NCBI GenBank assembly: GCA_965198115.1
Contig: OZ240241.1
Span: 8,362,056 to 8,426,055, forward strand
DNA from: Candidatus Latescibacterota bacterium
Lineage (GTDB): Bacteria; Latescibacterota; UBA2968
Direction: 5' to 3'
DNA length: 64,000 nucleotides
The position numbers and the translations under genes were made by a program. Every line of letters begins with the position of its first letter. Position 1 is the stretch's first letter. This document shows positions 9,484 to 61,490 of the stretch, piece after piece. The notes beneath the pieces were generated by a model that worked only from the letters and a program-made list of their open reading frames with translations, ran no database searches and had not been told where the DNA came from.

Positions 9484-10774
9484 GGTGTTGTGCCTATCGT
9501 AGTTGAAACTTAGAGGGCTCCAAACTTACGTTGGGTAGACGTGTAGGAGCGTATACCCGTAAGAGTTGATCCCGTTGGGTCTGGAGGCAGTGGCAGACCT
9601 CCTCCAGCAGGAGGTCGAGCAGCTCGCAGGCGTTCGGTATGCGCGCAAAGGTTCGGAGCAGGCGCATCGTCGGTGGGGAAGCCAGAAGGGATCCGTGTAT
9701 CTGATGGACCAGAAGCTCCCGTTAGACGTTCCCCGGGTGCGCGACGTCGAGGCCGACGCAGAGGTTTCCCTGGCTGCATACCGGGCTCTACAGACGCCCA
9801 AGAAGACGGACGAGGGGCTGTTGCTTCGTGTTCTCAAGGGGATCTCGTGCCGCAACTACAAGGCCTGTGCCGAATCGGTTCCAGAAGCGTTTGGTATCTC
9901 AGCGTCCTCCGTCTCGCGGCGGTTCATCAAAGCCACCGCGAAGAAGCGGAAGCAGTTCCAGGAGCGTCCCCTCGACGACTACGGCTTCGTGACCCTCTTC
10001 ATTGACGGAAAGAGCTTTGCCGACGAAGAGATCGTGATCGCTCTGGGGGTCACGATGGACGGCCAGAAGATCCCCCTGGGCTTCGTCGAATCGGCGACGG
10101 AGAACGAACGGATCTGCCGCCAGCTGATCCAGGACCTCATCCGGAGAGGCCTGTGCTACGACCAGGGCCTTCTCGTTGTGCTTGACGGCTCAAAGGGACT
10201 CCGCAGTGCTGTCACCAAAGCCCTCAAAGGGTATGTGCGCGTTCATCGCTGTCAGTGGCACAAGCGCGAGAATGTCGTCAGCTATCTCCCGGAGAGGGAA
10301 CGTCCAAGAGTTCGACGGAAGCTCCAGAAAGCCTATGACTGCGACACCTACGAGGAGGCAAAGGCCGCACTCGAATCACTTAAACCCGAACTGAAGCTGA
10401 TGAATCAGTCTGCCGTAACGAGCCTCGAGGAAGGCCTGGAGGAAACCCTGACCCTCCACCGGCTGGGTATGCTCCCATTCCTGAAACGAAGCTTCCGAAC
10501 CACCAACTGCATCGAAGCCCTCAACAGCATGACCGGCGAGCTCACTCGGAAGGTCAGACGCTGGAACAACTCTCCCCAGAGACACAGATGGGTGGCTGCC
10601 GCACTCCTCGACATCGAACCTCGCCTGCGACGCGTGAGCGGATACAAACATCTTCCCCTACTCAGGCAAGCACTGAACAAAGATCTGAATCTCGATAACG
10701 AACAGAATGCTCAAAAGAGAGCCTGACCAAACTACGGGGCCCGATGAGTTTTCAACTGACTATGGGACTTGACC
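9484..10774 (+). mobile_element. IS256-family element
   Basis: Imperfect terminal IRs (GGTGTTGTGCCTATCGTAGTTGAAA / rc GGTCAAGTCCCATAGTCAGTTGAAA); 8-bp TSD TGGGACGA at 9476-9483 and 10775-10782. Confidence 0.9.
9566..10726 (+). CDS. IS256-family DDE transposase (start uncertain, N-terminus possibly lost)
   Basis: FIDGK, VVLDGSKGL, RCQWHKRENV, RTTNCIEALN. Confidence 0.88.
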   Translation: MIPLGLEAVADLLQQEVEQLAGVRYARKGSEQAHRRWGSQKGSVYLMDQKLPLDVPRVRDVEADAEVSLAAYRALQTPKKTDEGLLLRVLKGISCRNYKACAESVPEAFGISASSVSRRFIKATAKKRKQFQERPLDDYGFVTLFIDGKSFADEEIVIALGVTMDGQKIPLGFVESATENERICRQLIQDLIRRGLCYDQGLLVVLDGSKGLRSAVTKALKGYVRVHRCQWHKRENVVSYLPERERPRVRRKLQKAYDCDTYEEAKAALESLKPELKLMNQSAVTSLEEGLEETLTLHRLGMLPFLKRSFRTTNCIEALNSMTGELTRKVRRWNNSPQRHRWVAAALLDIEPRLRRVSGYKHLPLLRQALNKDLNLDNEQNAQKRA

Positions 10775-15716: not shown

Positions 15717-16758
15717 AATTCGTGCGTCAAGAGCGCGTCGGATGTGAGGACTTCTGCGCCCGTCTCGGTAACCAGTACCACGGCCTCGAGCCCGAATTTC
15801 TCTTCAGCCTCCCAGAATGGGTAGACGCCGTCCAGCGTGACAAACGGCTCCACGGCCAGCACCATGTCCTTCTGTATCAAGTCTTCGTTGGCGGCCGTGA
15901 GCCCCGGTTCCTCGTGGATGTCGAGACCGAGGCTGTGACCGATCGTCGACCAGCCGTAATCGAGACACCATTTTGAGAAGTCACCGAAGCCGGCCGCATC
16001 GTTCACCGCGAAAGCAGCACCAAGAGGGACGTTGAAGGGGACGCCCGGTTTGACTTGGTCGATGGCGGCTTCGAAACCGGCTTTCGCCAAATCGAAGTGA
16101 CGCCGCTGCTCGGGCCGCGGTTCACCGATCGCGGCAATGCGCTTGAAGTCGCACCAGTATCCCCCGTAGACACAGCCTCCGTCGAACTGAACGAGGTCAC
16201 CCTTTTGGAGCACATAGTCCGTCGGCATGCTGTCCGCCCACATCGCCCGGGGGCCGGCGTAGAGGGCATTGAACCGCTGCTCGCTGGCACCCTCCGCACA
16301 CATGATGCTCGTCATGATGTCGACGACCTGTTTCTCCGTCACACCGGGACGCAGGGCTTCGAACCCGGCTTTGACGCCCTGTGTCGAGATCCGGGCGGCC
16401 GTGCGCAGGCGCTCGATTTCGGCTGACGACTTGATGCGGCGCAGACGCCACACGGCCTCGCTGCCGTCGACGATGTTGGCGTGCGAGAGTCCGTCGGTCA
16501 GTTCACGGAAATCCTCCTGACCCAGGTTCACCTGCATCCCCGAACTCAGCTCCATGCCGATCGTCGAGCTACCCAACCCCTTATCCTCGAGGACGTCGAG
16601 GACAAGCGCCACGGCATTCGACTTCTTGTCGATCTGAGATCCCTTCGTCAACGGCCAGTAACGTACGTCTTCGATCCAGCACTGTTTCACGAGATGCTCG
16701 AAACCGTGGGAGACCATCAGGACGGGAGTCCCTTCGACGGGAACGAGTAAGAAAAAAA

Positions 16759-18178
16759 GGCTATATCCGGATCTCTCAACGAGATGAAGTGGGTGAAGGT
16801 GCCGTGGTTCCTGGCATGGGGGCGCGGTTAGAGTGTGCGGAACCTCTTCGGAATCTGCTCAGGGATGTTTATGTCTCCGACGGTAAGGAAGATCATATCG
16901 TTGAATGCGTCGAGTGTGCGGAATCCGCTGGCTCGGTTCTTGACGATTTGGACGATTCGGTTGAGGCCTTCGGCGATGGCGTTGGTAAGACGCGTGTTCA
17001 CGAATGCGAGGACGCCGAAGAAGTGCTGTCGCAGGGTCCTGACGAACTTTCGCAGGGGTTCAAGTCGACTTCTGAGTGCGGACGTCGTCCAGCATTTCAG
17101 GAAGCGTTCGGCAGCCCAGGGCGCTTTGTATTCCCAGAACTGCTCGAACTCGTCCTTGAGTCTCCAGGCTCTATAGATTCGGTAGTTCGCCTTCTCCAGT
17201 GCTTTGAGTGTCCGAGTATCCCCTCTGGAGCGTGTCGCTGAGTGCCGGTAGAGGAGCCATCGGAGGCCCTTCATGGCTTTGCGCTCATCCGGGGCAGCTT
17301 TACGCCACTGGTCCTTACGGACCTCGTCAACGGCGGCATTGAGAGCCTTGACGATGTGAAAGCGATCGAGGACCAGCTTGGCATTCGGACAGTGTTCCTG
17401 GATGGCTCCGATGTAAGCTTCGCTCATGTCGCAGCAGGCCCACTCGATCTTGGATCTCCGGTAGGGACTGAGAGCCTCTGTGAAGAACCGATCGATCGTT
17501 TTACGCGCCCTGCCGCGGCCAACCCACACCACGCAGGAGCGGTCCAGATCGTAAACGAGCGTGGCGTACCTGTGACGCTTGGCGTAGGAGATCTCGTCGA
17601 TCCCGATGGTTTTGAGCCCTCGGATACGATGACCTTCACGAAGCCGCGTGATGGATCGGTGAAGGAGATCCGACAGCGTCGAGGCAGAGATGCGCAGTAA
17701 CTCGGACGCCGCCTTCTGCGTCATGGTCTGGCAGTAGCGCAGCATGGCATACTCGAAGCGATACGTCACCCGAGAGAACCGCTCCGCCCACGGAATCTCC
17801 TCGACCACACGACCGTGGGTAGGACACCGAATCTCCCGAGGATGGTAGAGAAGCCAGACCCTCCACCCGCACACCGGAATGTCACGCCACCGACGCGGAT
17901 GGGGCATTGTGCGGACGATTTTACCTCGACGGCCGCACTCCGGACAACAACAACCATTCTTATGTGGCTTTACGGCGATGACGAAACAGCTTCTCCCCTC
18001 AAACCACCAGCTGACAACACGGAACCCCTTGAATCTCAGCAGTTTCGATAGTAATCTGCTCCCGGTCATAGGTCGCACCCCCTTCGCTTTGATTGTCCTA
18101 CACACACAACCAAGCGTAGGGAACGATCTATGACCTTGTCATTCTATAGTTTCATCGTTGAGAAACCCGGATAGAGCC
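16759..18178 (-). mobile_element. ISL3-family element, copy 1 (1420 bp)
   Basis: IRs GGCTATATCCGG / CCGGATAGAGCC; 8-bp TSD GAAAAAAA; near-identical to 58644-60063 and 60071-61490. Confidence 0.95.
16828..18105 (-). CDS. ISL3-family transposase
   Basis: CPECG zinc finger, IGIDE, CDMS, DRFHIVK, TNAIAEGLN; start may be ATG 18069. Confidence 0.95.
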   Translation of the reverse strand: MCRTIKAKGVRPMTGSRLLSKLLRFKGFRVVSWWFEGRSCFVIAVKPHKNGCCCPECGRRGKIVRTMPHPRRWRDIPVCGWRVWLLYHPREIRCPTHGRVVEEIPWAERFSRVTYRFEYAMLRYCQTMTQKAASELLRISASTLSDLLHRSITRLREGHRIRGLKTIGIDEISYAKRHRYATLVYDLDRSCVVWVGRGRARKTIDRFFTEALSPYRRSKIEWACCDMSEAYIGAIQEHCPNAKLVLDRFHIVKALNAAVDEVRKDQWRKAAPDERKAMKGLRWLLYRHSATRSRGDTRTLKALEKANYRIYRAWRLKDEFEQFWEYKAPWAAERFLKCWTTSALRSRLEPLRKFVRTLRQHFFGVLAFVNTRLTNAIAEGLNRIVQIVKNRASGFRTLDAFNDMIFLTVGDINIPEQIPKRFRTL

Positions 18179-18378: not shown

Positions 18379-18647
18379 TCACTGCTCGTCGAAGAACCCG
18401 ATTGCGTCCAGGGCAGTCCGCATCTGGTGCTTTTCGCCCTCATCAAGCGGGGGTATGGGCGTGCGTGGAAGGCCGCACGCCAGACCCATCCAATCCATGG
18501 TCTGCTTGGCCGCGGCGACGACCTCGACAGTGGAAATGGCGGCGATGCACGCGTTGATCCGCTTCTGCGCAGATGTGGCGGCGGGCATGTCCGAGGCTTG
18601 GATCGCATCCCAAAGCTCGACGAACCACTGAGGTATAAGATTGTAGC
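18379..18647 (-). pseudogene. C-terminal fragment of a DHDPS/N-acetylneuraminate lyase family protein, truncated by IS630
   Basis: SYNLIPQWFVELWDA...AQKRIN...AAAKQTMDWMGLACGLPRTPIPPL; the N-terminal part is not present beyond the IS630. Confidence 0.72.
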
Positions 18648-19914
18648 TAAGTGCATGGTTTCATAAACATTATTACGTATGTCCTGAACATTATTTGTAG
18701 CTTATGTTCTCCTTCAAAAGGAGGAGAACAATGCCAAGACGTTCGCCTTATGTGGTGCTACTGTCTGAGAAGGAACGGGTCGACCTCGAGCGAATGGCTG
18801 GACAATATACGTTATCGTATTATAAAGTGATCCGATCGAAAATCGTGCTTCTCGCCGCCGAGGGATTATCCAACAAGATTATCGCCCAACGGTTGGATGT
18901 CCCGCGTCCGATCGTAAGCAAATGGCGTAAGCGCTTTTTCGAAGAGCGTCTTTCGGGACTCGAAGATAGATCTCGTCCCGGGCGCCCGCCCGGTTTTCCC
19001 CCCTCAGGTGGTCGTTCAGATCAAGGCGCTGGCGTGTGAACTACCGAGCGAGAGCGGGATACCGCTCTCGCGGTTCAGCTGTTCCGAGATTGCCGCCGAG
19101 GCAGTGCAAAGGGGCTTCGTTGCCAAGATCAGCGGCGCCACTGTCTGGCGCTGGTTGAACGAGGACGCGATTCGTCCTTGGTATCATCGCTCCTGGATTT
19201 TCCCACGGGACCCGGACTTCCAAACCAAAGCAGGTAGAGTCCTTGATCTGTATCACCGCCAATGGCAAGGAAAGCCTTTAGGGCCGAGGGAATATGTACT
19301 TTCTGCCGACGAAAAGACCAGTATTCAAGCACGAGCTCGCAAGCACGTTACCCTACCGCCAGCCTCGAACAGAGCGGCACGCGTTGAACACGAATACGAG
19401 CGGAAAGGAGCCCTGGCCTATCTGGCTGCTCTCGACGTGCACAATGGTCGAATCTTCGGTCTCTGTGAGTCTTCTTCGGGTATCGAGCCCTTCAACCGGC
19501 TCCTGAGCCTGATCATGAGCCGGAAACCCTATTGCTCGGCAAAGAAAGTCTACCTCATCGTGGATAATGGCTCCTCGCACCGAGGGCAAACATGCATCGA
19601 CCGTATCCAGGGGAAGTGGCCAAACATCCACCCCGTTCACCTTCCGATCCACGCAAGCTGGCTCAATCAGATCGAGATCTACTTCTCGATCCTCAAACGC
19701 AAGGCTCTGACACCTATCGAATTTGCATCGCTCGAAGAGCTTGAGGCAAGAATCCTCGGTTTTCAGGAACGCTACGGACGTATCGCCACACCCTTCAAAT
19801 GGAAGTTCACACGAACAGATCTCGCGGAGATGATCGACAAACTCAGGTTCTACGATACGCCCTTGGCAAAGTCTGCTTAGAATACGTCACCGTATTTGAG
19901 AACAGGAGTACTAA
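18648..19914 (+). mobile_element. IS630-family element
   Basis: CTAAG at both flanks (TA target), imperfect IRs ending ...ACGTAT; right end duplicated at 42980-43193. Confidence 0.85.
18731..19880 (+). CDS. IS630 transposase in two frames (likely programmed -1 frameshift at TTTTCCCCCC near 18995)
   Basis: HTH ORF (to 19039) plus DDE ORF 19008-19880 with SADEK, VDN.SSH, HASWLNQIE. Confidence 0.88.
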
Positions 19915-20101
19915 GGAAGCAGCCTACGTACATCTAGGACCCGATGAGACCTGCTAGGCGGAGGCGCCCTTCGATATAGTCTTAAGTCTGCAGGTCAACC
20001 TTTCCTCCCCGCTCCACGGCTCCTATAACGGGAGTCTTCCTCGGGACGAGCAAGAGGTCGACCGCCTGACATCGGCCAAGATCGTCGAAGGGCTCATTCA
20101 G

Positions 20102-20509
20102 ATGGAGGAACGGCCGTGGCCAGAGTGGCGCGGCGGGAAGCCCCTTACGCAGCGCGGCCTTGCCCGGCTGTTAGGGCCTTTCAGCGTTCGACCCCAACAG
20201 CTTTGGATCGATGGGGCGAAGACACGGGGCTACAATCGCGATGACTTCGTAGACGCCTGGACGCGCTACCTAGTTCCTGACCCTCCCACCGGGGCTTTTT
20301 CCGAGGGACCCCCGGCCCCAAGTGGTAGGTCCGGTAGGACCCGCGTCAGGACTGCGTTTCAGCCAGATTCGCAAGCGGTAGGCGCTCGCAATCCTACCAG
20401 TTGCGAAAACGCCCAAAAACCGCGCCAGGACTGCCTCCTACCGGTCCTACCACTTGCAAACCGCCCATCTGAGACGGAAGTGAATGAAGATGGCTGGACG
20501 GAGGTATGA
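20102..20509 (+). pseudogene. C-terminal fragment of a DUF3631-type primase/replication-associated protein
   Basis: EERPWPEWRGGKPLTQRGLARLL...TRGY...F.DAWTRYL signature; N-terminus missing. Confidence 0.65.
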
Positions 20510-21547
20510 CCATGACCTGAGCTATTGGAGATGCTGCGCCTACCGGAAGACGGTTGCCGCACTATCCCGACTCCCGACGTGGCTCGCGGGATCCGGCCTC
20601 GTTCTCTCCTGCTTACTGCCCAGAGTCCTTTGAAAGGGAGCCCCAGCCAAATGTCCGCTAACATCGGAAAAACCAAGGTCGCAACGGAGTAGCGAAGCGT
20701 TCAAGACGCAGGTTCGCACTCACTGTGGCGAAGAAAAAACGTTTGCTCAAAGCGATCCGGCTCGGTATGTCCTACGCGCACGCGGCGCTGTACGGGCATT
20801 GCCGAAAAGACGTTCTACAATGTTCAAGTAATTGAAACCCGACGGCTTGCCGGACCCCCCCCGAGATTCCTGAGAGTGTCTACGTCCGATGCTGTGACCA
20901 TTCGATTGTCCTTTGCATCGGGGATGTTGTCCCTCTTGACGTAGATTTCAAGTGGAGTCAGGTTGACTTTGCCGAAAGTTCATGCAAGTGAACTGCAGGC
21001 TGTTGGCGACAGCCTACGTTTTCGTTCGATGCAAGCTGTCCCACCGGAATTGCTGTCCGCCATTCGCACCCACCACCCCCCCCCCCCCCAAGCCGATCGG
21101 CGCTCCTGAGCGCCCTCAAGGCCCTTCCCGGGTCAGGGATGGCCACAGCACGATCACGGGCCAGGACGCCGGCGACGTGGGATCAGCAGGACGGCCGAAG
21201 CAGTTTCACGAACCGTGGGTTGGGGGTCGGGGGTCTTTTCCCTGGGTCGGGGGGTCTTTTCCGCGCTTGGCGCAAGCCTGAAAAGCACCAACGCGTTACT
21301 AGTACTTCTTATGAAGTACTAGAGAGAGCATCGTAGACAGGATATAATATCCGTATTATCAGTCGGTTAGATCAATTTCGGCCGCGTTATTGCCGGACGC
21401 CCTATTCCACCTCCTTTCACAGATGCGCCTACGCCCGCCGCCGCCGTGGGTGGAGGACGAAGGACCTGGTAGTCACGACAAGGGGATGCGGCACAAGGGG
21501 ATTCGCAAGGGTCTGCAGATGCACGAGGCCCAGGAACTGGCTCTGGC

Positions 21548-21745
21548 TTCTCGTCCATCCCGGTCTTGGCGGCGGCGACAGCGAGTGTCTTTTCCTTCGG
21601 TATCAGCGACATTAATCTCCTCACCTGTGCATCCGTGACCATCTAACCTCCCATCACAACAAGGGGTTAGATAACCTACGGCCATCCCCGCAAAACGGGA
21701 ATTATGGTTTGTCGTCAGGTGGGAGTTCTAATTTGTCGCTAATCA
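21548..21745 (-). mobile_element. IS21-family left-end relic with the first codons of istA
   Basis: MVTDAQVRRLMSLIPKEKTLAVAAAKTGMDEK then an abrupt switch; repeated TTTGTCG terminal boxes at 21709-21740. Confidence 0.6.
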
Positions 21746-21769
21746 CCTCCTCCCATAAAATGGCGGTCT

Positions 21770-22523
21770 TCACCGCTTCCGCTTGCTATTCTTTCGCCGC
21801 TGGCGCTCTTGCTGCTTCAACATCCGCTTGGGCATGACGCTACTTTCGGGAAATCGGATTCCGTTTGTCCCCGCGAGTTTGATCATCTCCCGTAGCTCCA
21901 TCTCGAACTGCGTAGACGACAGATGAGGTCGAAGCACCGTCAGTTTCGGGCCGTGGCAGTCCCGCAGCTTGCGCCCTCCACCACACGGGCACGCCATCAA
22001 AGGTGGGGAAAAATTATCCGCCAAACACTTGAGTAACTTCATCGCCTCGATTAGAGGGACCTTAAAGAACTCCACGTAGTACTGTTGTAAACCCGCTTCC
22101 CCATGCAAAAGCTCGCCGAAGGGTAGTTTTCCGTAGTTTCTCTTGTAGCTGTAGGCAAAGAGATAGGGAATGACTTGATCGTTGATGAAGCGGAGGAGGT
22201 TCTTATGCTCGGCGAATTGTCGGCGGACCTCGACCGGAGCTCCAAGGCAGAAGTTGCCATCTGCCATAAAGTGGCCAAAATCTTTTGGAATCTTGCTTTC
22301 TGTCTCGTAAACGAAAGGCGGTGAAGCGGGATAATCGTTGGGAATCTTGAACTCCAGGTTGTAATAATCTTCAATCCTGAGGGAGTCGTGCTCCATCGAG
22401 AAGCCGACACCTCCCAGTATCCGGAGCGCACCGGAGGGATCACGAAGTAGCTCTAGGGTGGGATGCCCGAGCTTGCACTTCCGTCATCTGGTCGATCACA
22501 AGCTGTTCTACTCCTTCATCCAC
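21770..22523 (-). pseudogene. Prokaryotic E2 (ubiquitin-conjugating-like) protein with a C-terminal SEC-C motif; one-base frameshift near 22467
   Basis: IPNDYPASPP.VYE, GHFMADGNFCLG (H..G..C), ELLHG..G, CPCGGGRKLRDCHG; GTG start overlaps the CD-NTase stop. Confidence 0.75.
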
Positions 22524-23401
22524 AGGAGTCAGGGGCCCATGGCTTACTTGGCCGCGACGGTAGCTCAATTTTGGGCGTTGTAGGTTGCTCGGACTTACGC
22601 GGTACAAGCACTAATGGTGCAGCGGAGTACTTCAACATCGCTGCCTCCGCGTCACGTCTACCATAGGCCTTGCGTAGGTAGTCCCCGACCTTCTCGAATC
22701 CTTGCTCGGTTAGGAGTTCTTTGTACTCCCGCTCGAGCACGTGGAGCCACCTGAAGAGCATCTCTGCCTTGCGCGGTTTTTCGGCCCACTTGTCGGCAAA
22801 ATTCTCCTCCGGATTCACGGGATTCGGCACCCACCAGGAAGCGCCGTCGCGCTTCTCGATGTAATCGCGCATGCGTGGTATTACGTCCAGCACAGCTTCC
22901 GTGAGGTCGGATTCGTTGTTGTAAGCCTGTGCTGCGAGCGTGGTGATGATGATCGAGATGGGCTTATCTTCATCGTCGTTGAAGCGCACGTCTCGGTGGC
23001 GTTTGAGGATCTGGATAAGCCGTTGGAGCGGGGTGCGAACGTCGAAGTCTTCAATTTCTTCTACTTCCGCTCGTATCTCCATCGCGTGTAATTGCTTGGC
23101 CTTCTCGAGGCTCACACGCATACGGTCCTTGAACCAGGCGACGTACCCCTTAGGGTTGCTTCGAGGCCACTCTGCGTTGGGGTCGCCCCATGTCTTGCGG
23201 TCGGTCAGACAGATGGCGGTTTCCGCCCACTCCATAGGCACGCCGAGCGCAACAAGCACACCATAGTCATCCGGGATTGCCGGGAGCACATCCAGATGGA
23301 ACTTTGACGCGTCGGCGTACCTAATTGTCCAGCAGCGGAGACCGCCGGCCGGTGGCTCGATCATGTCCTTATACCGGCTCTGCGGATGCTTGAGACGATC
23401 G

Positions 23402-24775
23402 GAGCTATAATCAAAAGGTGTGGAAAAAGAGAAAGGGCGACCCTACCCTTCCCGTGAGATAGTTGATTCACACAAAACCGGGTGAGAGGCCCGGTTGGGA
23501 AGGAGGATCGCCGTGAAGGAACATACGCATAGAGCCCCATTGAAGTCCATGCCGACGTGGGAGACGGTTGACGATTGGATCCGTGAAGAGATCCAGGGCC
23601 GGTTCCAGTCCATTCTGGAGGAGGAGGCGACCGCGTTCTTGGGCCGGTCGTGGTATGAGCGCCGAGCCGAGGTCGATAGCTCCAGGGGCTACAGGAACGG
23701 CTACGGCAAGCCCCGGCGTCTCTCGACGAGCTGCGGAACGATCAAGGTCCGGCGTCCCCGGGTTCGTGGTCTGGAAGAGCGGTTTGAAAGCCGCATCCTC
23801 CCCCTGTTCGCCCGGAGAACCAGGGCCATTGGAGATCTGCTTCCCGACCTTTATCTCCACGGTCTCTCCCAGGGCGACTTCGAGTTGTCTTTGCGTGCGC
23901 TGCTCGGTGATGGCGCGCCGCTTTCGCCGACCTCGATCGCTCGTCTTCGAGGGAAGTGGGAGGTCGACTTCCAGGACTGGAAAGAAAGGCGTCTGGATAA
24001 TCGCGAACTGGTCTACGCCTGGGCTGATGGCATCTACGTCAAAGCCGGGCTCGAGCGCGAGAAGGCGTGTCTGCTGGTCGTGATCGGCGCGATGAGCGAC
24101 GGCAGCAAGGAGATCCTGGCGATAGAACCCGGTTATCGAGAGTCTACAGAATCCTGGCTCACGGTGCTACGGGATCTCCGGGATCGCGGGCTCGAACATC
24201 CTGTCCTGATCGCCGCGGACGGGAATATGGGCATCTGGGCGGCCGTTGATCAGGTCTGGCCAGAGAGCCGGCAACAACGGTGCTGGAACCACAAGATCCT
24301 CAACGTGCTCGACAAGGTCGCCAAGCGTGCACAGGCTGAAGCCCGCGCACTGCTCGTCCAGATCCCCTATGCCGGCACGAAAAAGGAGGCCGAGAAGCTC
24401 CGGAAACGCTTTGCCGCACGGTATCGCTCACAGTTCCCTGCCGCCGTGGAGACGCTCGAAAGAGACTGGGATCGGATGGTCACGTTCTACGACTTCCCGA
24501 AGGAACACTGGAAACACCTGAGAACCACGAACGTCGTCGAGAGCCCCTTTGCTTCCGTTCGGCTTCGCACAAACGCCGCCAGGCGATTCAAGAAAGTCAG
24601 GAACGCCACGACTCTCATCTGGCGTACGCTCAAGGTCGCAGAGAGCCGATTCAGGAAACTCACCGCGCCACACTTGCTACAACAAGTCTACGATCAGAAA
24701 CACTCAACCGGACCGCAGGTCGAAACCGGGAAGATGGCCGCCTGATTTCTTTTACACACCTATTGACCTGAGCTC
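23402..24775 (+). mobile_element. IS256-family element (distinct from 9484-10774)
   Basis: IRs GAGCTATAATCAAAAGGTGTG / rc GAGCTCAGGTCAATAGGTGTG; 8-bp TSD GACGATCG at 23394-23401 and 24776-24783. Confidence 0.92.
23513..24745 (+). CDS. IS256-family transposase
   Basis: GYRNGY, WADGIY, ADG..G.W, QRCWNHK, RTTNVVES; AGGAGG RBS. Confidence 0.93.
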   Translation: MKEHTHRAPLKSMPTWETVDDWIREEIQGRFQSILEEEATAFLGRSWYERRAEVDSSRGYRNGYGKPRRLSTSCGTIKVRRPRVRGLEERFESRILPLFARRTRAIGDLLPDLYLHGLSQGDFELSLRALLGDGAPLSPTSIARLRGKWEVDFQDWKERRLDNRELVYAWADGIYVKAGLEREKACLLVVIGAMSDGSKEILAIEPGYRESTESWLTVLRDLRDRGLEHPVLIAADGNMGIWAAVDQVWPESRQQRCWNHKILNVLDKVAKRAQAEARALLVQIPYAGTKKEAEKLRKRFAARYRSQFPAAVETLERDWDRMVTFYDFPKEHWKHLRTTNVVESPFASVRLRTNAARRFKKVRNATTLIWRTLKVAESRFRKLTAPHLLQQVYDQKHSTGPQVETGKMAA

Positions 24776-25055
24776 GACGATCGCCTACTAAATTCTTCAG
24801 CTTCTTTTGCGTGACTTGGTTAGGTGCGAGTTGCAGCAGACAGACTGTGTCCACGTCATACTCTTCGTCGCCGAGAGGCTTTACTGCGGTACCCAGTGCA
24901 AACGAACCCTGTGGTATATGGACAATTGGTAGCGGGCTAGCTCCGAGCCATCTAGCCACGCGCCGACAGCCTCGTAGTGCTCTGTGGCTTCGCGATATTT
25001 GGATGGAGGAATATCGAGTTCTTCTGCAAGATTCTGGAGAATTCGGTTCAGGCGT

Positions 25056-25440
25056 TTACGGCCAATGTGTTCGTTCAATTCGTACTCCCTTCAAGCGATA
25101 GAAACGCTGCGATTTGGCTGCGTTGTGCGTGAAAACGTGATCCGCTTTGGCGATCCAGTCGTGTTTTTTTTCAGTTGAATCCATGGAAAGCGACTGATCC
25201 GACTCAAACGTCAGTCGTAAAACTTTCGGTTCGAGCGGACTCTCGCCCAACAGCAAGCAGAGCATGTTGTGTGCGTTGTTAGATTGGAGATTGAAGATCA
25301 GATCGATGAACTTGCTGCCCCGCCATCGGGTTGCGAATCCCCATCCCTGCCAGCTGTAAACGAGCCGGTCTTTCCACTTGCCTTTGCTCCGAGGGTAGAA
25401 CGTGGTGGTTTTCCCCGTCCCAATGGCCAGTGACCCGGCA
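25056..25440 (-). pseudogene. C-terminal fragment of a patatin-like phospholipase (CapV-like CBASS effector)
   Basis: LAIGTG...WG....W....IDLIFNLQS...H..L..LLG pattern; overlaps the CD-NTase start; catalytic N-terminus (GGG.RG, GxSxG) absent. Confidence 0.6.
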
Positions 25441-25534
25441 AGGCCGGGGCGACTCTCAGTCGATGGCGGTATTGGAACTCGCAAGGATCGAGGGGGAGGC
25501 GGACGGAGACACGGTCACAGACTGGACACCCTGA

Positions 25535-26110
25535 ATGCGATCACATCACACGACGAGAGATAAATGGCTACTCAGACCATTGACAAGTGGAGATAGATCG
25601 ATGATCGACCCCGAGTTTCAACTGCAACTCGAAATTTCAATGATGGCTGCCTGCTCTGAGGGGATTGAGCCCCGCGAAATAGGAGTGTGGGGGTCGAACA
25701 GCCAAGAGGCGTTGATTTTTGTGGAGGATTTCCGCAACGAACTCGATGATGATTGGCCCGGGGAATCAGGCTATGAGGAATATGCGCTCGCCCTGGCCCG
25801 CACCAGACTTGACGAGATTGACCGGAGTTCGCTCTCCTCTGCGTGGAAAGAAATCGCACGAGAGGCCGTGATGGTCACCTTGTTTTGTAGAACAAGCGAC
25901 CTCTATATCTATGCCGGTCTGCCTCCAGCGGTTCTATTGAACAGATTGGGCGGCAGGACCGCCGGAGCCATTTGGATCCTCTGTGAGTCTCTACTGCTCA
26001 TGAACCCTCTGGAAGCACGGGCGCATATACAGAAGTGGCTTACCGAAATTCCGGTGGCCCCTGGGTTCTCTCACGAGGATGAAACCAATCAAGGCAGAGC
26101 CGGGACCTAA
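25535..26110 (+). CDS. Hypothetical protein
   Basis: Open 191-codon frame with protein-like composition; no motif recognised; start may be ATG 25601. Confidence 0.5.
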   Translation: MRSHHTTRDKWLLRPLTSGDRSMIDPEFQLQLEISMMAACSEGIEPREIGVWGSNSQEALIFVEDFRNELDDDWPGESGYEEYALALARTRLDEIDRSSLSSAWKEIAREAVMVTLFCRTSDLYIYAGLPPAVLLNRLGGRTAGAIWILCESLLLMNPLEARAHIQKWLTEIPVAPGFSHEDETNQGRAGT

Positions 26111-26136
26111 ATGCAGATTTTCATAATGGTGAGAAT

Positions 26137-26532
26137 GTGAAACAGCCAGAGAAGGACGTGGGTGTTGCTCGATCTAACCCTGAAGAAGGGCCGGATAGGG
26201 ATGAACTTGGTCGGATCTTGCCAGGGCGTCGACCGGTGGGAAGAGCTGCAGGAACTCCCAACAAGATCAGCGCTGTGCGGGCCGAGTTCCTCAGGGTTTA
26301 CCATGAGAACAACGGTTACGAGCGTTTGGTGGAGTTGTTGGAGGAGGACAAGCCGACCTTCTTCAGGTTGTTTGTGGCGATGGTTCCGAAGCTGAAGATT
26401 CAGGAAACTCGTGACACGAGCGGGTTGGACATATCCGAAATATCCACCGACGAGCTCCTGGCGGCCCTGGGGCTCACGTGCATAGAAGAGGCTGAGGTAG
26501 AGGGTACAGGCGGGGGAAGTGGAGAGCAGTGA
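26137..26532 (+). CDS. Phage small-terminase-like / DUF5681-like protein
   Basis: RDELGRILPG...GR..GTPNK...FL.....G...L..L...D..F..L...VPK...DISEISTDELL pattern. Confidence 0.55.
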   Translation: MKQPEKDVGVARSNPEEGPDRDELGRILPGRRPVGRAAGTPNKISAVRAEFLRVYHENNGYERLVELLEEDKPTFFRLFVAMVPKLKIQETRDTSGLDISEISTDELLAALGLTCIEEAEVEGTGGGSGEQ

Positions 26533-26634
26533 GGTGATCGCCGTGGGATCAGTGGGGGCACACTCCGACTTTCGCCGGAGTCTTGCTGGCCTGGCGGCGT
26601 TCAGATGGCGTCTATAGGCTACGTGGTAACAGCC

Positions 26635-27219
26635 TCAAGCGTATTTTTGAACCGTTCCCCTCGGCACGTTCAGTTCCTTCGCGATCTCACCCAGACTCAT
26701 CTTCTTGTCCCGTCGGAGTGTCCTGATTCTCGAGACGGTCTTTTCCGGAACCCGTGGTCTGCCCAGCTTCTTTCCCTCGGCCTTTGCCTTGGCAAGACCG
26801 CTGCGGATCCGCTCTCTGATGATCTCCCGCTCGAACTCGGAGATGGCGCTGATGATTGTGAACATGGCCTTGCCCATCGGGCTGCTCGTGTCGATCTGCT
26901 CGTGCAGGCTGATGAAGTCCACGCCCAGGTGATTAAACTCCTCCAGGGCATCGACCAACTGCTTTGTTGACCTGGCGAACCGATCGAATCGATACACGAG
27001 GATCGTATCGACCTTGCGGCCTCGTACCAGGGTCCACAGACGGTCCAATTCGGGACGACGGTCTTTGGACCCGCTCTCTGTATCGACAAGCTCGTCTACG
27101 ACCTCCAGACCCCCCTGATGAGCGTATTCTCTAAGCTCCCTCACCTGCATCCCCACATCCTGACCGGTCGTTGAAACACGCGCGTAGATGGCTACACGGG
27201 CGTTCTTCCTCGGTGCCAT
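26635..27219 (-). CDS. Small serine recombinase (resolvase/invertase)
   Basis: YARVST, RPEL, DRFARS, EFEREIIRER..GL..AK..G..LGRP, C-terminal HTH. Confidence 0.93.
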   Translation of the reverse strand: MAPRKNARVAIYARVSTTGQDVGMQVRELREYAHQGGLEVVDELVDTESGSKDRRPELDRLWTLVRGRKVDTILVYRFDRFARSTKQLVDALEEFNHLGVDFISLHEQIDTSSPMGKAMFTIISAISEFEREIIRERIRSGLAKAKAEGKKLGRPRVPEKTVSRIRTLRRDKKMSLGEIAKELNVPRGTVQKYA

Positions 27220-29812: not shown

Positions 29813-30130
29813 TCAGCGGAGGTCATCCTGTCCGACGCTCCCGATCTCACTTTCAAGCTCCAATATGTGGGCTTCAATCAAGTGTCGTAACTCAGCGACC
29901 ATCTGGCGGTTGGTTGCGCTACACGCTGTCTTGAAACGCCGATGGACGGAGACCGGAACATCTACGCTGAGCCGTTTTGTCGGCTCAGTGGTTTTCTCCT
30001 GCTTGATGTTCTTGCGGGGAGGTTCTTCAAGGGCCGGGCCATGGCCTGGACCCGCTTTTTCAAAGGACTCCAGGGCGTCATCGATAAGCATTTTTGGTTT
30101 CGGAACGCTCTGAAATGATTTCTTGCTCAT
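29813..30130 (-). CDS. ParG-like ribbon-helix-helix partition protein
   Basis: KRLSVDVPVSVHRRFKTACS; overlaps the 3' end of parA. Confidence 0.7.
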   Translation of the reverse strand: MSKKSFQSVPKPKMLIDDALESFEKAGPGHGPALEEPPRKNIKQEKTTEPTKRLSVDVPVSVHRRFKTACSATNRQMVAELRHLIEAHILELESEIGSVGQDDLR

Positions 30131-30743
30131 AGCTTAGAATCTCCTTTGTCAGCTTCTCAATATCGCTCGCGGCAGGGCTTTCCGGTGCCCATTCAAAAAT
30201 CATTTTGCCCATCGTCAGACTCTCGGCATAGGCGACTCGCTGGGCGATTTCGTTTGCCAGGATCGGGATGCCCATCGCGGCAGCCATCGAGCGGATCTCG
30301 CGACCGATAACCGTGTTCCCTATTTTGCGTGAAACCACAAAACAACATTTGATGATTTTGAGTTCCTGTGCTTCCTGGACCTGACGGACGGTGAGATCGC
30401 TGGCCCAAGTAGACAGGCCGCTTGGTTCGATGGGCACGAGGACAAGGTCAGACGCCACAATGCACGAGCGAGCAATGGATTCAGCGTGTGGCGGGCCATC
30501 AATCACGGTGTAGGTGTGGTCGGCTGCCAGTTTCAGCGCATCCCGCGCCATGTTTTCGCGGGCGAGTGAGATCACCTTGAAATCGGTATGCTCGCGCAAG
30601 CTCGCCCAAGCAGAGGCGGACCCTTGCTTGTCGGCGTCGATCAAAAGGACATTGTGCCCGTTACGGGCCAACCCAGCGGCGACATTCACTGCCAGCGTGG
30701 TTTTCCCGACACCACCCTTCTGATTGAGAAAAGAAATAACCAC
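30078..30743 (-). CDS. parA: ParA/ParF-type plasmid partition ATPase
   Basis: NQKGGVGKTT, LIDADKQGS, VIDGPP. Confidence 0.92.
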   Translation of the reverse strand: MVISFLNQKGGVGKTTLAVNVAAGLARNGHNVLLIDADKQGSASAWASLREHTDFKVISLARENMARDALKLAADHTYTVIDGPPHAESIARSCIVASDLVLVPIEPSGLSTWASDLTVRQVQEAQELKIIKCCFVVSRKIGNTVIGREIRSMAAAMGIPILANEIAQRVAYAESLTMGKMIFEWAPESPAASDIEKLTKEILSYEQEIISERSETKNAYR

Positions 30744-31207: not shown

Positions 31208-32506
31208 TTAGGATTTGCCACGAAATAAGTGCTGCACTTTTCAAGGTAATGATCTTACGCTCGGAGTGTGGACGTCGAAACTCTCCGAACGAAGTATGAA
31301 GCCTTGGCTCCGGTGCTGACGGAACGCACGCGTCGTCTGTGGGCCGCCACGGAAGCCGAAGCGTTGGGTCACGGTGGGATCGCGATTGTGGCTCTGGCGA
31401 CAGGAATGTCCAGAGAGCGGATCTTTCGTGGCATTCAGGAGTTGAGGTCGGACGAACCTTTGGACCCGGCTCGCATCCGGCGTCCAGGCGGCGGTCGTAA
31501 GCGGAAGGCCGACACGGACCCGACGCTGTGGCAGGACCTGAATGATCTGGTCGAGCCAACGACTGCGGGGTCGCCTGACGACAATCCTCTGAGATGGACA
31601 TCGAAGAGCACTCGCAAACTGGCCGCCGAGTTGCAAGCGATGGGGCATTCGGTGAGCCCCAGGATCGTTGCCAATCTCCTGCACGAACACGATTACACGC
31701 TGCAGGCGAATCGGAAGACAAGGGAGGGATCTGCACACCCGGATCGGGACGCTCAGTTCGTTTACCTCGATGATCGGATTAGCCAGCAGCAGCAGCAGGG
31801 CCTTCCCGTTATCTCGGTGGACACCAAGAAGAAAGAGTTGATCGGCGACTTCAAGAATCCTGGCCGAGAATGGCGACCCAAGGGAGACCCGGAGCGTGTG
31901 AAGGTACACGATTTCATAGTGCCTGCTCAGGGCAAGGCGATCCCTTATGGAGTGTATGATCTGAGCCGTGATGAAGGCTGGGTAAGTGTCGGTATCGATC
32001 ACGACACGGCCAGCTTCGCCGTGAATGCGATCCGAAGTTGGTGGAAGAACATGGGACGGCCCGCCTACGGCACTTCGACGCATCTGCTAATCACGGCGGA
32101 CGCAGGCGGCAGCAACGGCGCCAAGACGCGGCTGTGGAAGTGGGAGCTGCAGCGCTTTGCGAATCGCACTGGCCTGACGATCACCGTATGCCACTACCCT
32201 CCTGGCACTAGTAAGTGGAACAAGATCGAACATCGCCTGTTCTCCTTCATCGCTATGAACTGGCAAGGCAAGCCCCTGGTCAGCCTGGCTGCAACCGTGA
32301 ATCTCATTGCCGGAACGACCACTCAAGCCGGTCTCCGAGTACGCTCCGAGATCGACAAGCGACCCTACCCTAACGGGGTCAAGGTGACCGATGAACAGAT
32401 GACCCAAATCGATCTCACTCCGCACGATTTCCACGGCGACTGGAACTACACGATCCGGCCAATGGCTCAACATTGAGATCGACCGTTTATTTATTCGCGA
32501 ACCCTA
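31208..32506 (+). mobile_element. ISAzo13-family element
   Basis: Ends TAGGATTTGC..AAATAA / TTATTCGCGAACCCTA at a TAA target; exact ends +/-2 bp. Confidence 0.85.
31268..32476 (+). CDS. ISAzo13-family transposase
   Basis: RRPGGGRK, LRWTSKS, ISVDTKKKE, ADAGGSN, GTSKWNKIEHRLF, HG.WNY. Confidence 0.93.
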   Translation: MDVETLRTKYEALAPVLTERTRRLWAATEAEALGHGGIAIVALATGMSRERIFRGIQELRSDEPLDPARIRRPGGGRKRKADTDPTLWQDLNDLVEPTTAGSPDDNPLRWTSKSTRKLAAELQAMGHSVSPRIVANLLHEHDYTLQANRKTREGSAHPDRDAQFVYLDDRISQQQQQGLPVISVDTKKKELIGDFKNPGREWRPKGDPERVKVHDFIVPAQGKAIPYGVYDLSRDEGWVSVGIDHDTASFAVNAIRSWWKNMGRPAYGTSTHLLITADAGGSNGAKTRLWKWELQRFANRTGLTITVCHYPPGTSKWNKIEHRLFSFIAMNWQGKPLVSLAATVNLIAGTTTQAGLRVRSEIDKRPYPNGVKVTDEQMTQIDLTPHDFHGDWNYTIRPMAQH

Positions 32507-32575
32507 AGTCTTCTTCCAGCGCGCGTAGGTGGTCATACTCGGATTTTGGGATCGTCACCATTTTGGTCATAGCTC

Positions 32576-58568: not shown

Positions 58569-58643
58569 CCCACCGGTATGCCGCAGTCGTTCAAAGTACA
58601 CATCACATCTCGCTTCAGGCGAGACGCCCAGAAGCTTTTAAAG

Positions 58644-60063
58644 GGCTATATCCGGATCTCTCAACGAGATGAAGTGGGTGAAGGTGCCGTGGTTCCTGGC
58701 ATGGGGGCGCGGTTAGAGTGTGCGGAACCTCTTCGGAATCTGCTCAGGGATGTTTATGTCTCCGACGGTAAGGAAGATCATATCGTTGAATGCGTCGAGT
58801 GTGCGGAATCCGCTGGCTCGGTTCTTGACGATCTGGACGATTCGGTTGAGGCCTTCGGCGATGGCGTTGGTAAGACGCGTGTTCACGAATGCGAGGACGC
58901 CGAAGAAGTGCTGTCGCAGGGTCCTGACGAACTTTCGCAGGGGTTCAAGTCGACTTCTGAGTGCGGACGTCGTCCAGCATTTCAGGAAGCGTTCGGCAGC
59001 CCAGGGCGCTTTGTATTCCCAGAACTGCTCGAACTCGTCCTTGAGTCTCCAGGCTCTATAGATTCGGTAGTTCGCCTTCTCCAGTGCTTTGAGTGTCCGA
59101 GTATCCCCTCTGGAGCGTGTCGCTGAGTGCCGGTAGAGGAGCCATCGGAGGCCCTTCATGGCTTTGCGCTCATCCGGGGCAGCTTCACGCCACTGGTCCT
59201 TACGGACCTCGTCAACGGCGGCATTGAGAGCCTTGACGATGTGAAAGCGATCGAGGACCAGCTTGGCATTCGGACAGTGTTCCTGGATGGCTCCGATGTA
59301 AGCTTCGCTCATGTCGCAGCAGGCCCACTCGATCTTGGATCTCCGGTAGGGACTGAGAGCCTCTGTGAAGAACCGATCGATCGTTTTACGCGCCCTGCCG
59401 CGGCCAACCCACACCACGCAGGAGCGGTCCAGATCGTAAACGAGCGTGGCGTACCTGTGACGCTTGGCGTAGGAGATCTCGTCGATCCCGATGGTTTTGA
59501 GCCCTCGGATACGATGACCTTCACGAAGCCGCGTGATGGATCGGTGAAGGAGATCCGACAGCGTCGAGGCAGAGATGCGCAGTAACTCGGACGCCGCCTT
59601 CTGCGTCATGGTCTGGCAGTAGCGCAGCATGGCATACTCGAAGCGATACGTCACCCGAGAGAACCGCTCCGCCCACGGAATCTCCTCGACCACACGACCG
59701 TGGGTAGGACACCGAATCTCCCGAGGATGGTAGAGAAGCCAGACCCTCCACCCGCACACCGGAATGTCACGCCACCGACGCGGATGGGGCATTGTGCGGA
59801 CGATTTTACCTCGACGGCCGCACTCCGGACAACAACAACCATTCTTATGTGGCTTTACGGCGATGACGAAACAGCTTCTCCCCTCAAACCACCAGCTGAC
59901 AACACGGAACCCCTTGAATCTCAGCAGTTTCGATAGTAATCTGCTCCCGGTCATAGGTCGCACCCCCTTCGCTTTGATTGTCCTACACACACAACCAAGC
60001 GTAGGGAACGATCTATGACCTTGTCATTCTATAGTTTCACCGTTGAGAAACCCGGATAGAGCC
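58644..60063 (-). mobile_element. ISL3 copy 2 (intact transposase 58713-59990)
   Basis: Same IRs and length as copy 1. Confidence 0.95.
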
Positions 60064-60070
60064 TTTTAAA

Positions 60071-61490
60071 GGCTATATCCGGATCTCTCAACGAGATGAA
60101 GTGGGTGAAGGTGCCGTGGTTCCTGGCATGGGGGCGCGGTTAGAGTGTGCGGAACCTCTTCGGAATCTGCTCAGGGATGTTTATGTCTCCGACGGTAAGG
60201 AAGATCATATCGTTGAATGCGTCGAGTGTGCGGAATCCGCTGGCTCGGTTCTTGACGATTTGGACGATTCGGTTGAGGCCTTCGGCGATGGCGTTGGTAA
60301 GACGCGTGTTCACGAATGCGAGGACGCCGAAGAAGTGCTGTCGCAGGGTCCTGACGAACTTTCGCAGGGGTTCAAGTCGACTTCTGAGTGCGGACGTCGT
60401 CCAGCATTTCAGGAAGCGTTCGGCAGCCCAGGGCGCTTTGTATTCCCAGAACTGCTCGAACTCGTCCTTGAGTCTCCAGGCTCTATAGATTCGGTAGTTC
60501 GCCTTCTCCAGTGCTTTGAGTGTCCGAGTATCCCCTCTGGAGCGTGTCGCTGAGTGCCGGTAGAGGAGCCATCGGAGGCCCTTCATGGCTTTGCGCTCAT
60601 CCGGGGCAGCTTTACGCCACTGGTCCTTACGGACCTCGTCAACGGCGGCATTGAGAGCCTTGACGATGTGAAAGCGATCGAGGACCAGCTTGGCATTCGG
60701 ACAGTGTTCCTGGATGGCTCCGATGTAAGCTTCGCTCATGTCGCAGCAGGCCCACTCGATCTTGGATCTCCGGTAGGGACTGAGAGCCTCTGTGAAGAAC
60801 CGATCGATCGTTTTACGCGCCCTGCCGCGGCCAACCCACACCACGCAGGAGCGGTCCAGATCGTAAACGAGCGTGGCGTACCTGTGACGCTTGGCGTAGG
60901 AGATCTCGTCGATCCCGATGGTTTTGAGCCCTCGGATACGATGACCTTCACGAAGCCGCGTGATGGATCGGTGAAGGAGATCCGACAGCGTCGAGGCAGA
61001 GATGCGCAGCAACTCGGACGCCGCCTTCTGCGTCATGGTCTGGCAGTAGCGCAGCATGGCATACTCGAAGCGATACGTCACCCGAGAGAACCGCTCCGCC
61101 CACGGAATCTCCTCGACCACACGACCGTGGGTAGGACACCGAATCTCCCGAGGATGGTAGAGAAGCCAGACCCTCCACCCGCACACCGGAATGTCACGCC
61201 ACCGACGCGGATGGGGCATTGTGCGGACGATTTTACCTCGACGGCCGCACTCCGGACAACAACAACCATTCTTATGTGGCTTTACGGCGATGACGAAGCA
61301 GCTTCTCCCCTCAAACCACCAGCTGACAACACGGAACCCCTTGAATCTCAGCAGTTTCGATAGTAATCTGCTCCCGGTCATAGGTCGCACCCCCTTCGCT
61401 TTGATTGTCCTACACACACAACCAAGCGTAGGGAACGATCTATGACCTTGTCATTCTATAGTTTCACCGTTGAGAAACCCGGATAGAGCC
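60071..61490 (-). mobile_element. ISL3 copy 3 (intact transposase 60140-61417)
   Basis: Same IRs and length; separated from copy 2 by TTTTAAA. Confidence 0.95.

What the first reader, a model, noticed from the sequence alone, without database searches (positions are those of the whole stretch)
21770..25440. Reconstructable CBASS-type operon: patatin effector, CD-NTase and a stand-alone E2/SEC-C, each gene broken
Seen: three overlapping minus-strand genes hidden by damage. The CD-NTase is restored by removing IS256 (TSD GACGATCG) and one indel near 24912. The upstream gene keeps only a patatin-like C-terminus, and the downstream E2 has a 1-nt insertion. Known: patatin (CapV) plus CD-NTase defines CBASS, and E2-only (short type II) variants exist. 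Inference: this is a short type II CBASS with no E1 or JAB gene, silenced by loss of the effector active site and then decayed. It can be resurrected in silico.
Basis: partly seen in the sequence, partly recalled or inferred. Interest (0 to 1): 0.85.

Follow-up and report, generated by a model that had tools for sequence, protein, structure and literature searches.

The report
Dead E2-only CBASS, glycine-less tail branch
This is a recently destroyed copy of a known kind of bacterial anti-phage alarm system; its intact relatives belong to a catalogued but apparently untested branch whose signal-making enzyme lacks the tail glycine that the one studied example needs, so they likely use different attachment chemistry.

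Summary
Three minus-strand genes (patatin 3' remnant, clade-G-like CD-NTase, E2 with SEC-C) match intact operons at about 70-85% amino-acid identity. The IS256 with its 8-bp duplication is real.

Damage is heavier than reported: 8 indels (4 frameshifts), plus a 5' deletion removing patatin residues 1-~205 and probably capH/capP. Those parts were not found elsewhere in the genome, so only the cyclase and E2 can be read through. dN/dS is still that of intact pairs, so decay is very recent. 'Effector lost first' cannot be shown.

The interest lies in the family. Among 80 related cyclases, all 24 beside this long E2 end in (P/Q)W-x with no conserved Gly. All 35 beside the short Serratia-type E2 end in aromatic-Gly. 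In Serratia, Gly→Arg kills defence, yet Arg is the commonest residue here, and the E2 keeps its catalytic Cys and His. A glycine-independent ligation is the likely, untested mechanism.

This scan has already noted this branch in intact copies in other genomes, which are better test material than this one.

The parts
25075..25438 (-). 3' remnant of a CapV-like patatin phospholipase (residues ~206-325 of 325-aa relatives). The DGGG, GTSTG and DGG motifs (residues 11, 44, 177 in relatives) are deleted. Carries a -3 nt (~25224) and a -1 nt (~25115) change.
   Evidence: PADLOC phospholipase E 8.5e-8; 83-85% aa identity to L007/L008; alignments; intact L007 passes NCBIfam CBASS_lipase, 231 vs cut-off 200
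24776..25078 (-). 5' part of the clade-G-like CD-NTase (TTG start at 25078; QGS and DxD motifs), with a -6 nt (~24953) and a frameshifting -1 nt (~24915)
23402..24775 (+). IS256-family element (intact 416-aa transposase, 23495-24745) inserted in the cyclase; 8-bp target duplication at 23394-23401 and 24776-24783
22516..23401 (-). 3' part of the CD-NTase (third catalytic Asp, SNPKGY lid, KRHR, ENF). Carries +3 nt (~22841), -33 nt (~22626) and a -1 nt at ~22537 just after the Pro-Trp tail motif; the relatives' stop position corresponds to 22531-22529.
   Evidence: PADLOC cyclase E 2.4e-86; 76-81% aa identity to L007-L011 and L013
21770..22523 (-). Stand-alone long E2 (UBC fold, His-x7-Cys active site, PFGExxHG motif) with a C-terminal SEC-C zinc knuckle; GTG start at 22523; frameshifting +1 nt at ~22468
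   Evidence: PADLOC E2 PDLC00871 E 3e-59; fold of intact relative
25439..25439 (.). Deletion junction: unrelated sequence replaces the patatin 5' two-thirds, the operon's upstream region and, by comparison with relatives, capH/capP
   Evidence: blastn homology ends at genome 8387493 = window 25438; one run contig crosses it with 0 differences; no capP match in the genome

Best explanation
This is a very recently inactivated E2-only (type II-short) CBASS operon whose intact form likely made 3'2'-cGAMP to trigger a membrane-destroying patatin, and whose long E2 is predicted to cut and ligate the cyclase's Pro-Trp tail without needing the glycine used in Serratia.

Shown here: the gene identities, the gene order, the IS insertion, the eight indels, the 5' deletion, and the pairing of tail type with E2 type.

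Inferred from known systems: (1) phage infection activates the cyclase; (2) the product is 3'2'-cGAMP, because all 15 checked catalytic and lid residues match VcCdnG numbering; (3) patatin kills or arrests the cell; (4) CapH/CapP control transcription (recalled).

Inferred and untested: the E2 Cys92/His84 dyad acts as an E1-independent protease/transpeptidase that recognises the invariant Trp and cleaves after Trp or the next residue.

This copy is dead. A deletion removed the effector's active site and the upstream region, and IS256 and four frameshifts hit the rest, in a genome undergoing an IS expansion. The order of these events is unknown.
For: Identity and order.

Clade: best PDB matches of the intact cyclase are 9WOO (E 6e-63), SmCdnG 8HSB (2e-33) and 7LJN. 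9WOO is VcCdnG, a clade-G enzyme making 3'2'-cGAMP (PMC12804361), and it ends in KPWFKQ.

Tail and E2 pairing among the 80 loci kept: 24 of 24 with the long E2 have (P/Q)W near the cyclase end; 35 of 35 with a short E2 have aromatic-Gly and none has PW; 0 of 21 others have PW. In E2-anchored searches, 8 of 9 loci with an upstream cyclase end in PW-x. The residue after Trp in 33 cyclases is R12, S5, G3, C3, V3, A2, L2, Q, K, F.

E2: Cys92, His140 and three knuckle Cys are invariant in 24 of 24, and His84 aligns in 23 of 24. The AlphaFold model (pLDDT 92.9) has a UBC fold: UEV Z 12.0, UFC1 Z 11.0, SmE2 Z 9.2 with rmsd 3.4 over 128 residues.

Tail type is scattered on the cyclase tree: 13 changes against a minimum of 2.

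One natural in-frame cyclase-QPWSP-E2 fusion exists (L031).

Complex prediction for L007 gave weak support: score 0.52, best control 0.00; runs agree in at least 61% of contacts; partner pLDDT at least 83. The mark was reached by 116 of 157 solved and 2 of 215 mismatched pairs, but at 0.60 or below by only 18 solved and both mismatches. A like complex (8HSB) is solved, so the pass may be from memory.

Recency of decay.
Against: No experiment shows covalent linkage in this branch. In Serratia, G406V and G406L abolish linkage and G406R abolishes defence (preprint 10.1101/2022.05.25.493364), so a non-Gly position could mean no ligation at all. The long and short E2 profiles are only weakly alike (HHalign probability 10.5%, E 0.003). 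Tail and E2 gene are adjacent, so one recombination moves both and co-occurrence alone does not prove interaction. One E2-anchored locus ends in PHRC rather than PW. The cyclase is only 36% identical to the VcCdnG-like protein, and I found no paper on a clade-G cyclase activating a patatin, so the product and its receptor are predictions. The best structural matches include catalytically dead UEV domains.
Confidence: 0.7

Rival explanations
1. Same dead operon, but in this branch the E2 only binds the proline-rich PW tail non-covalently (UEV-like), as an inhibitor or phage sensor, and does not ligate it.
For: No conserved Gly or Ala after Trp (5 of 33). Top fold matches are TSG101 UEV domains, several solved with PTAP/PSAP peptides. 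VcCdnG makes product in vitro as a purified protein with Mn2+ (PMC12804361).
Against: The Cys at the E2 active-site position is invariant in 24 of 24 and the His is nearly so, across sequences only 18-78% identical. HHalign places both on the short family's invariant His and Cys.
Confidence: 0.2
2. One reading: the patatin and promoter deletion came first, silenced the operon, and the IS and frameshifts followed neutrally.
For: One deletion removes the toxic effector and the upstream region together. A ~99%-identical strain in run X3 has contigs one base shorter over 22042-22486 and one base longer over 24844-25115, as expected if it lacks the two frameshifts; this is inferred from lengths, and the gap positions were not shown.
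Against: The patatin remnant is no more decayed than the other genes (dN/dS 0.11-0.15). X3 has no cover over the deletion junction. Other decayed relatives lost the cyclase 5' end (L011, L020, L102) or the patatin 5' end (L031), so either order occurs.
Confidence: 0.4
3. The 1-nt indels are long-read assembly errors and the locus is broken only by IS256 and the 5' deletion.
For: The 24915 and 22468 changes lie in short C and G runs; the genome is a single contig.
Against: Run contigs at depth 9-13 reproduce all four frameshift sites with no gap. Singleton indels in 127 IS copies run at 13 per 174 kb, giving 0.17 expected in 2.3 kb and P(>=4) of about 3e-5.
Confidence: 0.04

Closest known systems
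Serratia marcescens E2-CBASS, SmCdnG-SmE2 (PDB 8HSB/8YJY/9KKB; bioRxiv 10.1101/2022.05.25.493364; PMC12948482)
   Same: Clade-G cyclase plus a lone E2, with no E1 or JAB. UBC fold (Z 9.2 to 8hsb_B). Cys and His at the positions that correspond by profile alignment.
   Different: The Serratia tail needs Gly406; this branch has Pro-Trp-x. SmE2 is 162 aa and belongs to the short family (profile E 6e-33); this E2 is ~250 aa with a helical extension and SEC-C knuckle, and 8hsb_B is not among the best 60 hits of its profile. The effector is patatin, not 2TM-SAVED. This copy is a pseudogene.
VcCdnG-Cap5 (PDB 9WOO; PMC12804361)
   Same: Closest solved cyclase (E 6e-63). It has the same PW tail (KPWFKQ), the same N/Y lid and all 15 checked catalytic residues. 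A nearly identical cyclase on a Vibrio gigantis plasmid is followed by a long E2-SEC-C gene.
   Different: The effector is Cap5 nuclease; identity is 36%. In the passages I saw, the paper does not study an E2 ('Cap2' and 'type II' occur 0 times; the term 'E2' could not be searched). I did not see that strain's own operon.
CBASS type II-short as catalogued in PADLOC-DB (E2 models PDLC00859/861/865/870/871/872, 216-241 positions)
   Same: The window's E2, cyclase and patatin remnant all hit these models, so the gene set is already catalogued.
   Different: The models carry no mechanism. The separate ~150-position E2 models hit the Serratia-type proteins instead.
CapV-type CBASS phospholipases (PDB 9KH6/9KH7/9WN0/9WN1, 8ZR9) and CapH/CapP regulators
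   Same: Intact relatives' patatin hits these (E 7e-41); their upstream pair hits PADLOC capH (1e-24) and capP (5e-60).
   Different: In the window the catalytic two-thirds of patatin and both regulators are missing.

Membership tests
CBASS (any type) | CD-NTase with GS motif, three acidic metal ligands and lid residues | tested here: met
   PADLOC cyclase hits on three consecutive pieces; Q55, G56, S57, D73, D75, R120, D135, S193, N194, Y198, K244, R247, S261, E308, F310 all identical in VcCdnG numbering
CBASS (any type) | Adjacent nucleotide-activated effector gene | tested here: met
   Patatin remnant directly upstream; full-length CBASS_lipase in relatives
CBASS (any type) | Intact, functional genes in this genome | tested here: not met
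   IS256, 4 frameshifts and a 5' deletion
CBASS (any type) | Cyclic nucleotide synthesis and phage protection | not testable with these tools
   Needs bench work on an intact relative
Type II-short / E2-only CBASS (gene content) | Lone E2 downstream, no E1 domain, no JAB | tested here: met
   E2 models cover the whole protein; UBC fold; only JAB hit ~200 kb away; no E1 or JAB evident next to the closest relatives (ORF lists; L007's next gene has no PADLOC hit)
Clade G CD-NTase | Closest to characterised CdnG enzymes; N/Y lid | tested here: met
   Best three PDB hits are VcCdnG 9WOO, SmCdnG 8HSB and 7LJN (BdCdnG per PMC12948482); no tree with reference clades A-H was built
Serratia-type E2-CBASS (mechanism) | Conserved Gly near the cyclase C-terminus | tested here: not met
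   Gly after the aromatic residue in 3 of 33 cyclases of this branch; Arg in 12; only Trp399 is invariant in the tail
Serratia-type E2-CBASS (mechanism) | E2 catalytic Cys and His | tested here: met
   Cys92 24 of 24, His84 23 of 24, His140 24 of 24; the match to SmE2 C101/H87/H152 rests on a weak profile alignment
Serratia-type E2-CBASS (mechanism) | Short (~160 aa) SmE2-family E2 | tested here: not met
   Different PADLOC model sets; the short profile finds 8hsb_B, the long profile does not list it in its best 60; SEC-C-like motif in 24 of 24 long E2s
Serratia-type E2-CBASS (mechanism) | Covalent cyclase-E2 linkage and poly-cGASylation | not testable with these tools
   Complex prediction gave only weak support for contact and no interface

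The most novel reading that the evidence does not exclude
A widespread branch of E2-only CBASS uses an E2 that cleaves and ligates a cyclase tail through a non-glycine residue, reading an invariant Trp, with a zinc knuckle as the likely sensor or brake. That would be ubiquitin-like conjugation without E1 and without the C-terminal Gly or Ala. Tail plus E2 behave as a cassette that has been swapped repeatedly onto clade-G cyclase cores.
Probability: 0.4. Interest if true: 0.72.

Novelty: new variant of a known kind. Interest (0 to 1): 0.38.

Why it matters
The locus itself matters little. It is one dead defence cassette in a genome where 12.8% of the DNA lies in repeats present 10 or more times.

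The family it exposes poses a clean, testable question. The conjugations in the CBASS papers I read go through a small C-terminal residue, and in Serratia Gly→Arg abolishes defence. Yet 24 of the 59 E2-linked clade-G cyclases in my sample carry Pro-Trp-x instead, with a catalytically intact E2. Either the E2 ligates through an unusual residue, or it regulates without ligation. Both would extend current models of CBASS control. Intact relatives at ~80% identity exist, so nothing needs to be resurrected.

Tried and rejected
Patatin 5' end or capH/capP displaced elsewhere in the genome: not found by tblastn or blastn, by the phospholipase model (two other weak hits, E 7e-5 and 3e-4) or by the capP model.

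A second CBASS in the genome: the cyclase model hits only these three pieces.

A sister genome with the same cassette at this site: of 52 other genomes of the order, 4 carry related cyclases at 40-70% identity. The one congener has none at E 1e-20.

Ordering the lesions: dN/dS gives no gradient. A finer read-level view of the near-identical strain in run X3 was not obtained, so its gap positions stay inferred.

The frameshifted tail ending in Gly (PWAPDSCG) as a functional adaptation: rejected. The final GGA-TGA is dictated by the E2's own GTG-GAT start.

ORFs in the replacing DNA (25535-26110, 26137-26532): no hit in Pfam, PADLOC, NCBIfam or PHROGs.

Metagenome scan with the E2: 3 loci from 53 candidates, one with a cyclase end.

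An IQ-TREE run did not finish; FastTree was used instead.

Literature searches that found no description of the PW tail or the E2-SEC-C pairing. Figures and supplements were not visible. Ledvina Extended Data Fig. 8 (type II-short logos), Yan Extended Data Fig. 5a and Xiao Fig. 4D/S5 may already show such tails. The Burroughs 2015 survey (recalled) could not be retrieved.
Full report
1. What is in the sequence. On the minus strand lie a patatin remnant (25438-25075), a CD-NTase (TTG at 25078 to about 22529) and an E2-like gene (GTG at 22523 to 21770). The cyclase pieces hit consecutive stretches of PADLOC model PDLC00770 (6-55, 56-102, 107-376). The E2 hits PDLC00871 at E 3e-59, and the remnant hits phospholipase PDLC00758 at positions 212-318 of 331. 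An IS256 (NF033543, 295 bits) occupies 23402-24775 between two copies of GACGATCG. The window is the end of a single 8.43-Mb contig with 127 full-length copies of this IS, 94 of them with 8-9 bp duplications. Overall, 12.8% of the genome lies in 24-mers seen 10 or more times.

2. Intact relatives. A scan of species genomes with the cyclase's 3' piece confirmed 271 relatives among 344 pattern matches and kept the best 80. The closest complete ones (L007-L010, L013; 76-81% identity) come from Acidobacteriota and Latescibacterota MAGs. They have the same order with open frames of about 325, 401 and 250 aa. Four of the five closest with enough flank (L007, L008, L010, L013; not L012) also carry a divergent HTH plus M78 peptidase pair, which in L007 hits PADLOC capH and capP. 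Their role as transcriptional regulators is recalled, not checked.

3. Damage. Against these relatives the window has eight private indels: patatin -3 (~25224) and -1 (~25115); cyclase -6 (~24953), -1 (~24915), +3 (~22841), -33 (~22626) and -1 (~22537); E2 +1 (~22468). The relatives have 0-2 each, none shifting a frame. Homology stops at 25438. Patatin residues 1-~205 with all three catalytic motifs, and capH/capP, were not found anywhere in the genome.

The lesions are real. Contigs of run X1 match 22424-22870, 24861-25163 and 25327-26902 with no difference at depth 9-13 (possibly the window's own sample). The background indel rate seen in IS copies predicts 0.17 such events here.

Decay is very recent. 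There are no stops in 734 codons read in the relatives' frame, and dN/dS is 0.09-0.20 over the three whole genes for window pairs, against 0.07-0.20 for intact pairs (four relatives). A ~99%-identical strain in run X3 has contig lengths consistent with lacking the 24915 and 22468 frameshifts (inferred from lengths). It has no cover at the deletion junction.

4. Which CBASS. The intact cyclase's best PDB matches are 9WOO, SmCdnG and 7LJN. 9WOO is VcCdnG, clade G, product 3'2'-cGAMP (PMC12804361; I read part 1 of 6 and passages). All 15 catalytic and lid positions that I could map are identical in the window. I used a nearly identical Vibrio gigantis plasmid protein for the numbering; K118/K119 did not align. 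The genome's only JAB hit is about 200 kb away. This is the type II-short arrangement described in PMC12948482 (parts 1-3 of 4 read) and defined in the Ledvina preprint legend (passages).

5. The twist. The 80 loci fall into three groups.
(a) 24 have a long E2 found by tblastn with the window's E2. All 24 cyclases have (P/Q)W in the last 14 residues; for the fusion L031 this is at the junction.
(b) 35 have a short E2-like ORF, assigned by length and alignment. Seven were checked by HMM, and a profile of 14 finds SmE2 at E 6e-33. All 35 end in aromatic-Gly and none in PW.
(c) 21 have no E2 and mostly longer cyclases with a shared C-terminal extension (read as AGS-C from memory); none has PW.

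E2-anchored checks agree. Of 10 plasmid records I examined 7, skipping three near-duplicates. Six have an upstream cyclase, all PW, and one has IS30 in its place. L096 and L105 are PW. L106 ends in PHRC, the one exception. After the Trp come R12, S5, G3, C3, V3, A2, L2, Q, K and F in 33 cyclases.

In Serratia the matching residue is Gly406: Val or Leu abolishes linkage, Ala is tolerated, and Arg abolishes defence; Cys101 and His87 are required (preprint 10.1101/2022.05.25.493364, parts 1-3 of 6 read). The long E2 keeps Cys92 (24 of 24), His84 (23 of 24), His140 (24 of 24) and a SEC-C-like knuckle (24 of 24). It folds confidently (pLDDT 92.9) into a UBC domain: UEV Z 12.0, UFC1 Z 11.0, SmE2 Z 9.2. 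It is only distantly related to the short family (HHalign 10.5%).

On a FastTree of 90 cyclase cores with tails trimmed (80 loci, 9 added, and the window's 3' piece), the three types need 13 changes against a minimum of 2. PW needs 9, at least 5 of them forced by well-supported branches. So tail plus E2 moves as a cassette. Because the two are adjacent, this does not by itself prove interaction. Complex prediction was weak: 0.52 against a best control of 0.00, runs agreeing in at least 61% of contacts, partner pLDDT at least 83. Passes at 0.60 or below were reached by 18 of 157 solved pairs and by both passing mismatches of 215, and a like complex is solved.

6. Mechanism. Most likely the intact operon made 3'2'-cGAMP to activate the patatin, and its E2 acted, like SmE2, as an E1-independent protease/ligase on the cyclase tail, but keyed on Trp rather than Gly. 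The first half follows from established CBASS biology plus residue conservation. The second half is inference (about 0.4). The main rival is non-covalent tail binding. In this genome none of it can work.

7. Novelty. The gene set is catalogued in PADLOC, and one PW-tailed cyclase has a structure and a product. I found no paper that addresses the PW tail or the E2-SEC-C (searches). Unseen figures and supplements of the Ledvina, Yan and Xiao papers may show such tails. I reached the pattern before looking up earlier notes. This scan has recorded it several times in intact operons of other genomes (unchecked notes, not evidence).

8. Verdict. A real, well-read pseudogene of a known system type, in a variant branch with an open biochemical question that is better pursued on intact relatives. 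Interest 0.38.

Noticed in passing
whole genome G000; window 9565-10695, 16752-18154, 18646-19917, 23400-24777, 31208-32508, 58640-61495: Massive recent IS expansion: several families at about 40, 77, 141 and 236 copies; 12.8% of the genome in repeats of 10 or more copies. The genome is 8.4 Mb against 5.6 Mb for its one congener.
   Followed up: partly
L031:5698-7545: Natural in-frame fusion of cyclase, QPWSP linker and E2-SEC-C (616 aa), preceded by a patatin that appears 5'-truncated. A ready self-cleavage test if the fusion is not a sequencing artefact.
   Followed up: partly
L100:2771-4663: A Vibrio gigantis plasmid encodes a cyclase nearly identical to PDB 9WOO, followed by a long E2-SEC-C, with a SAVED gene upstream. 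The solved cyclase therefore belongs to the PW-tail branch.
   Followed up: partly
L011:4966-6801, L020:5848-6534, L102:3042-4516: Other broken copies of the same cassette: the cyclase 5' end is replaced by a transposase-like gene or other DNA, or the cyclase is replaced by IS30.
   Followed up: no
window 21700-25493 versus runs X1/X2: The samples hold several related alleles at higher summed depth (roughly 15-110) than the window's allele (~10), including contigs that join across the IS site. IS-free relatives of this cassette appear to occur in other members of the same community.
   Followed up: no
window 25535-27219 and 20102-20509, 29813-30743: Mobile-element remnants around the operon: two ORFs without family hits, a serine resolvase (86% identical copy at genome 1.156 Mb), a DUF3631 fragment with a 99.8% identical copy at 4.959 Mb, and a ParA with a small partner gene.
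   Followed up: partly
window 21367-21745: Directly downstream of the E2, a short repeated segment (97% identical elsewhere in the genome) encodes what looks like the start of an IS21-type transposase; the family label is recalled, and Pfam gave no hit.
   Followed up: no
L037, L040, L043, L046, L047, L051 at about 1030-1873 (L046 745-1587): Several Rhodobacterales-type loci carry a second CD-NTase-like gene about 5 kb upstream of the main one.
   Followed up: no
L106 (G134), reverse strand 317-2148: A long-E2 operon whose cyclase ends in PHRC, showing that His can replace the otherwise invariant Trp.
   Followed up: no
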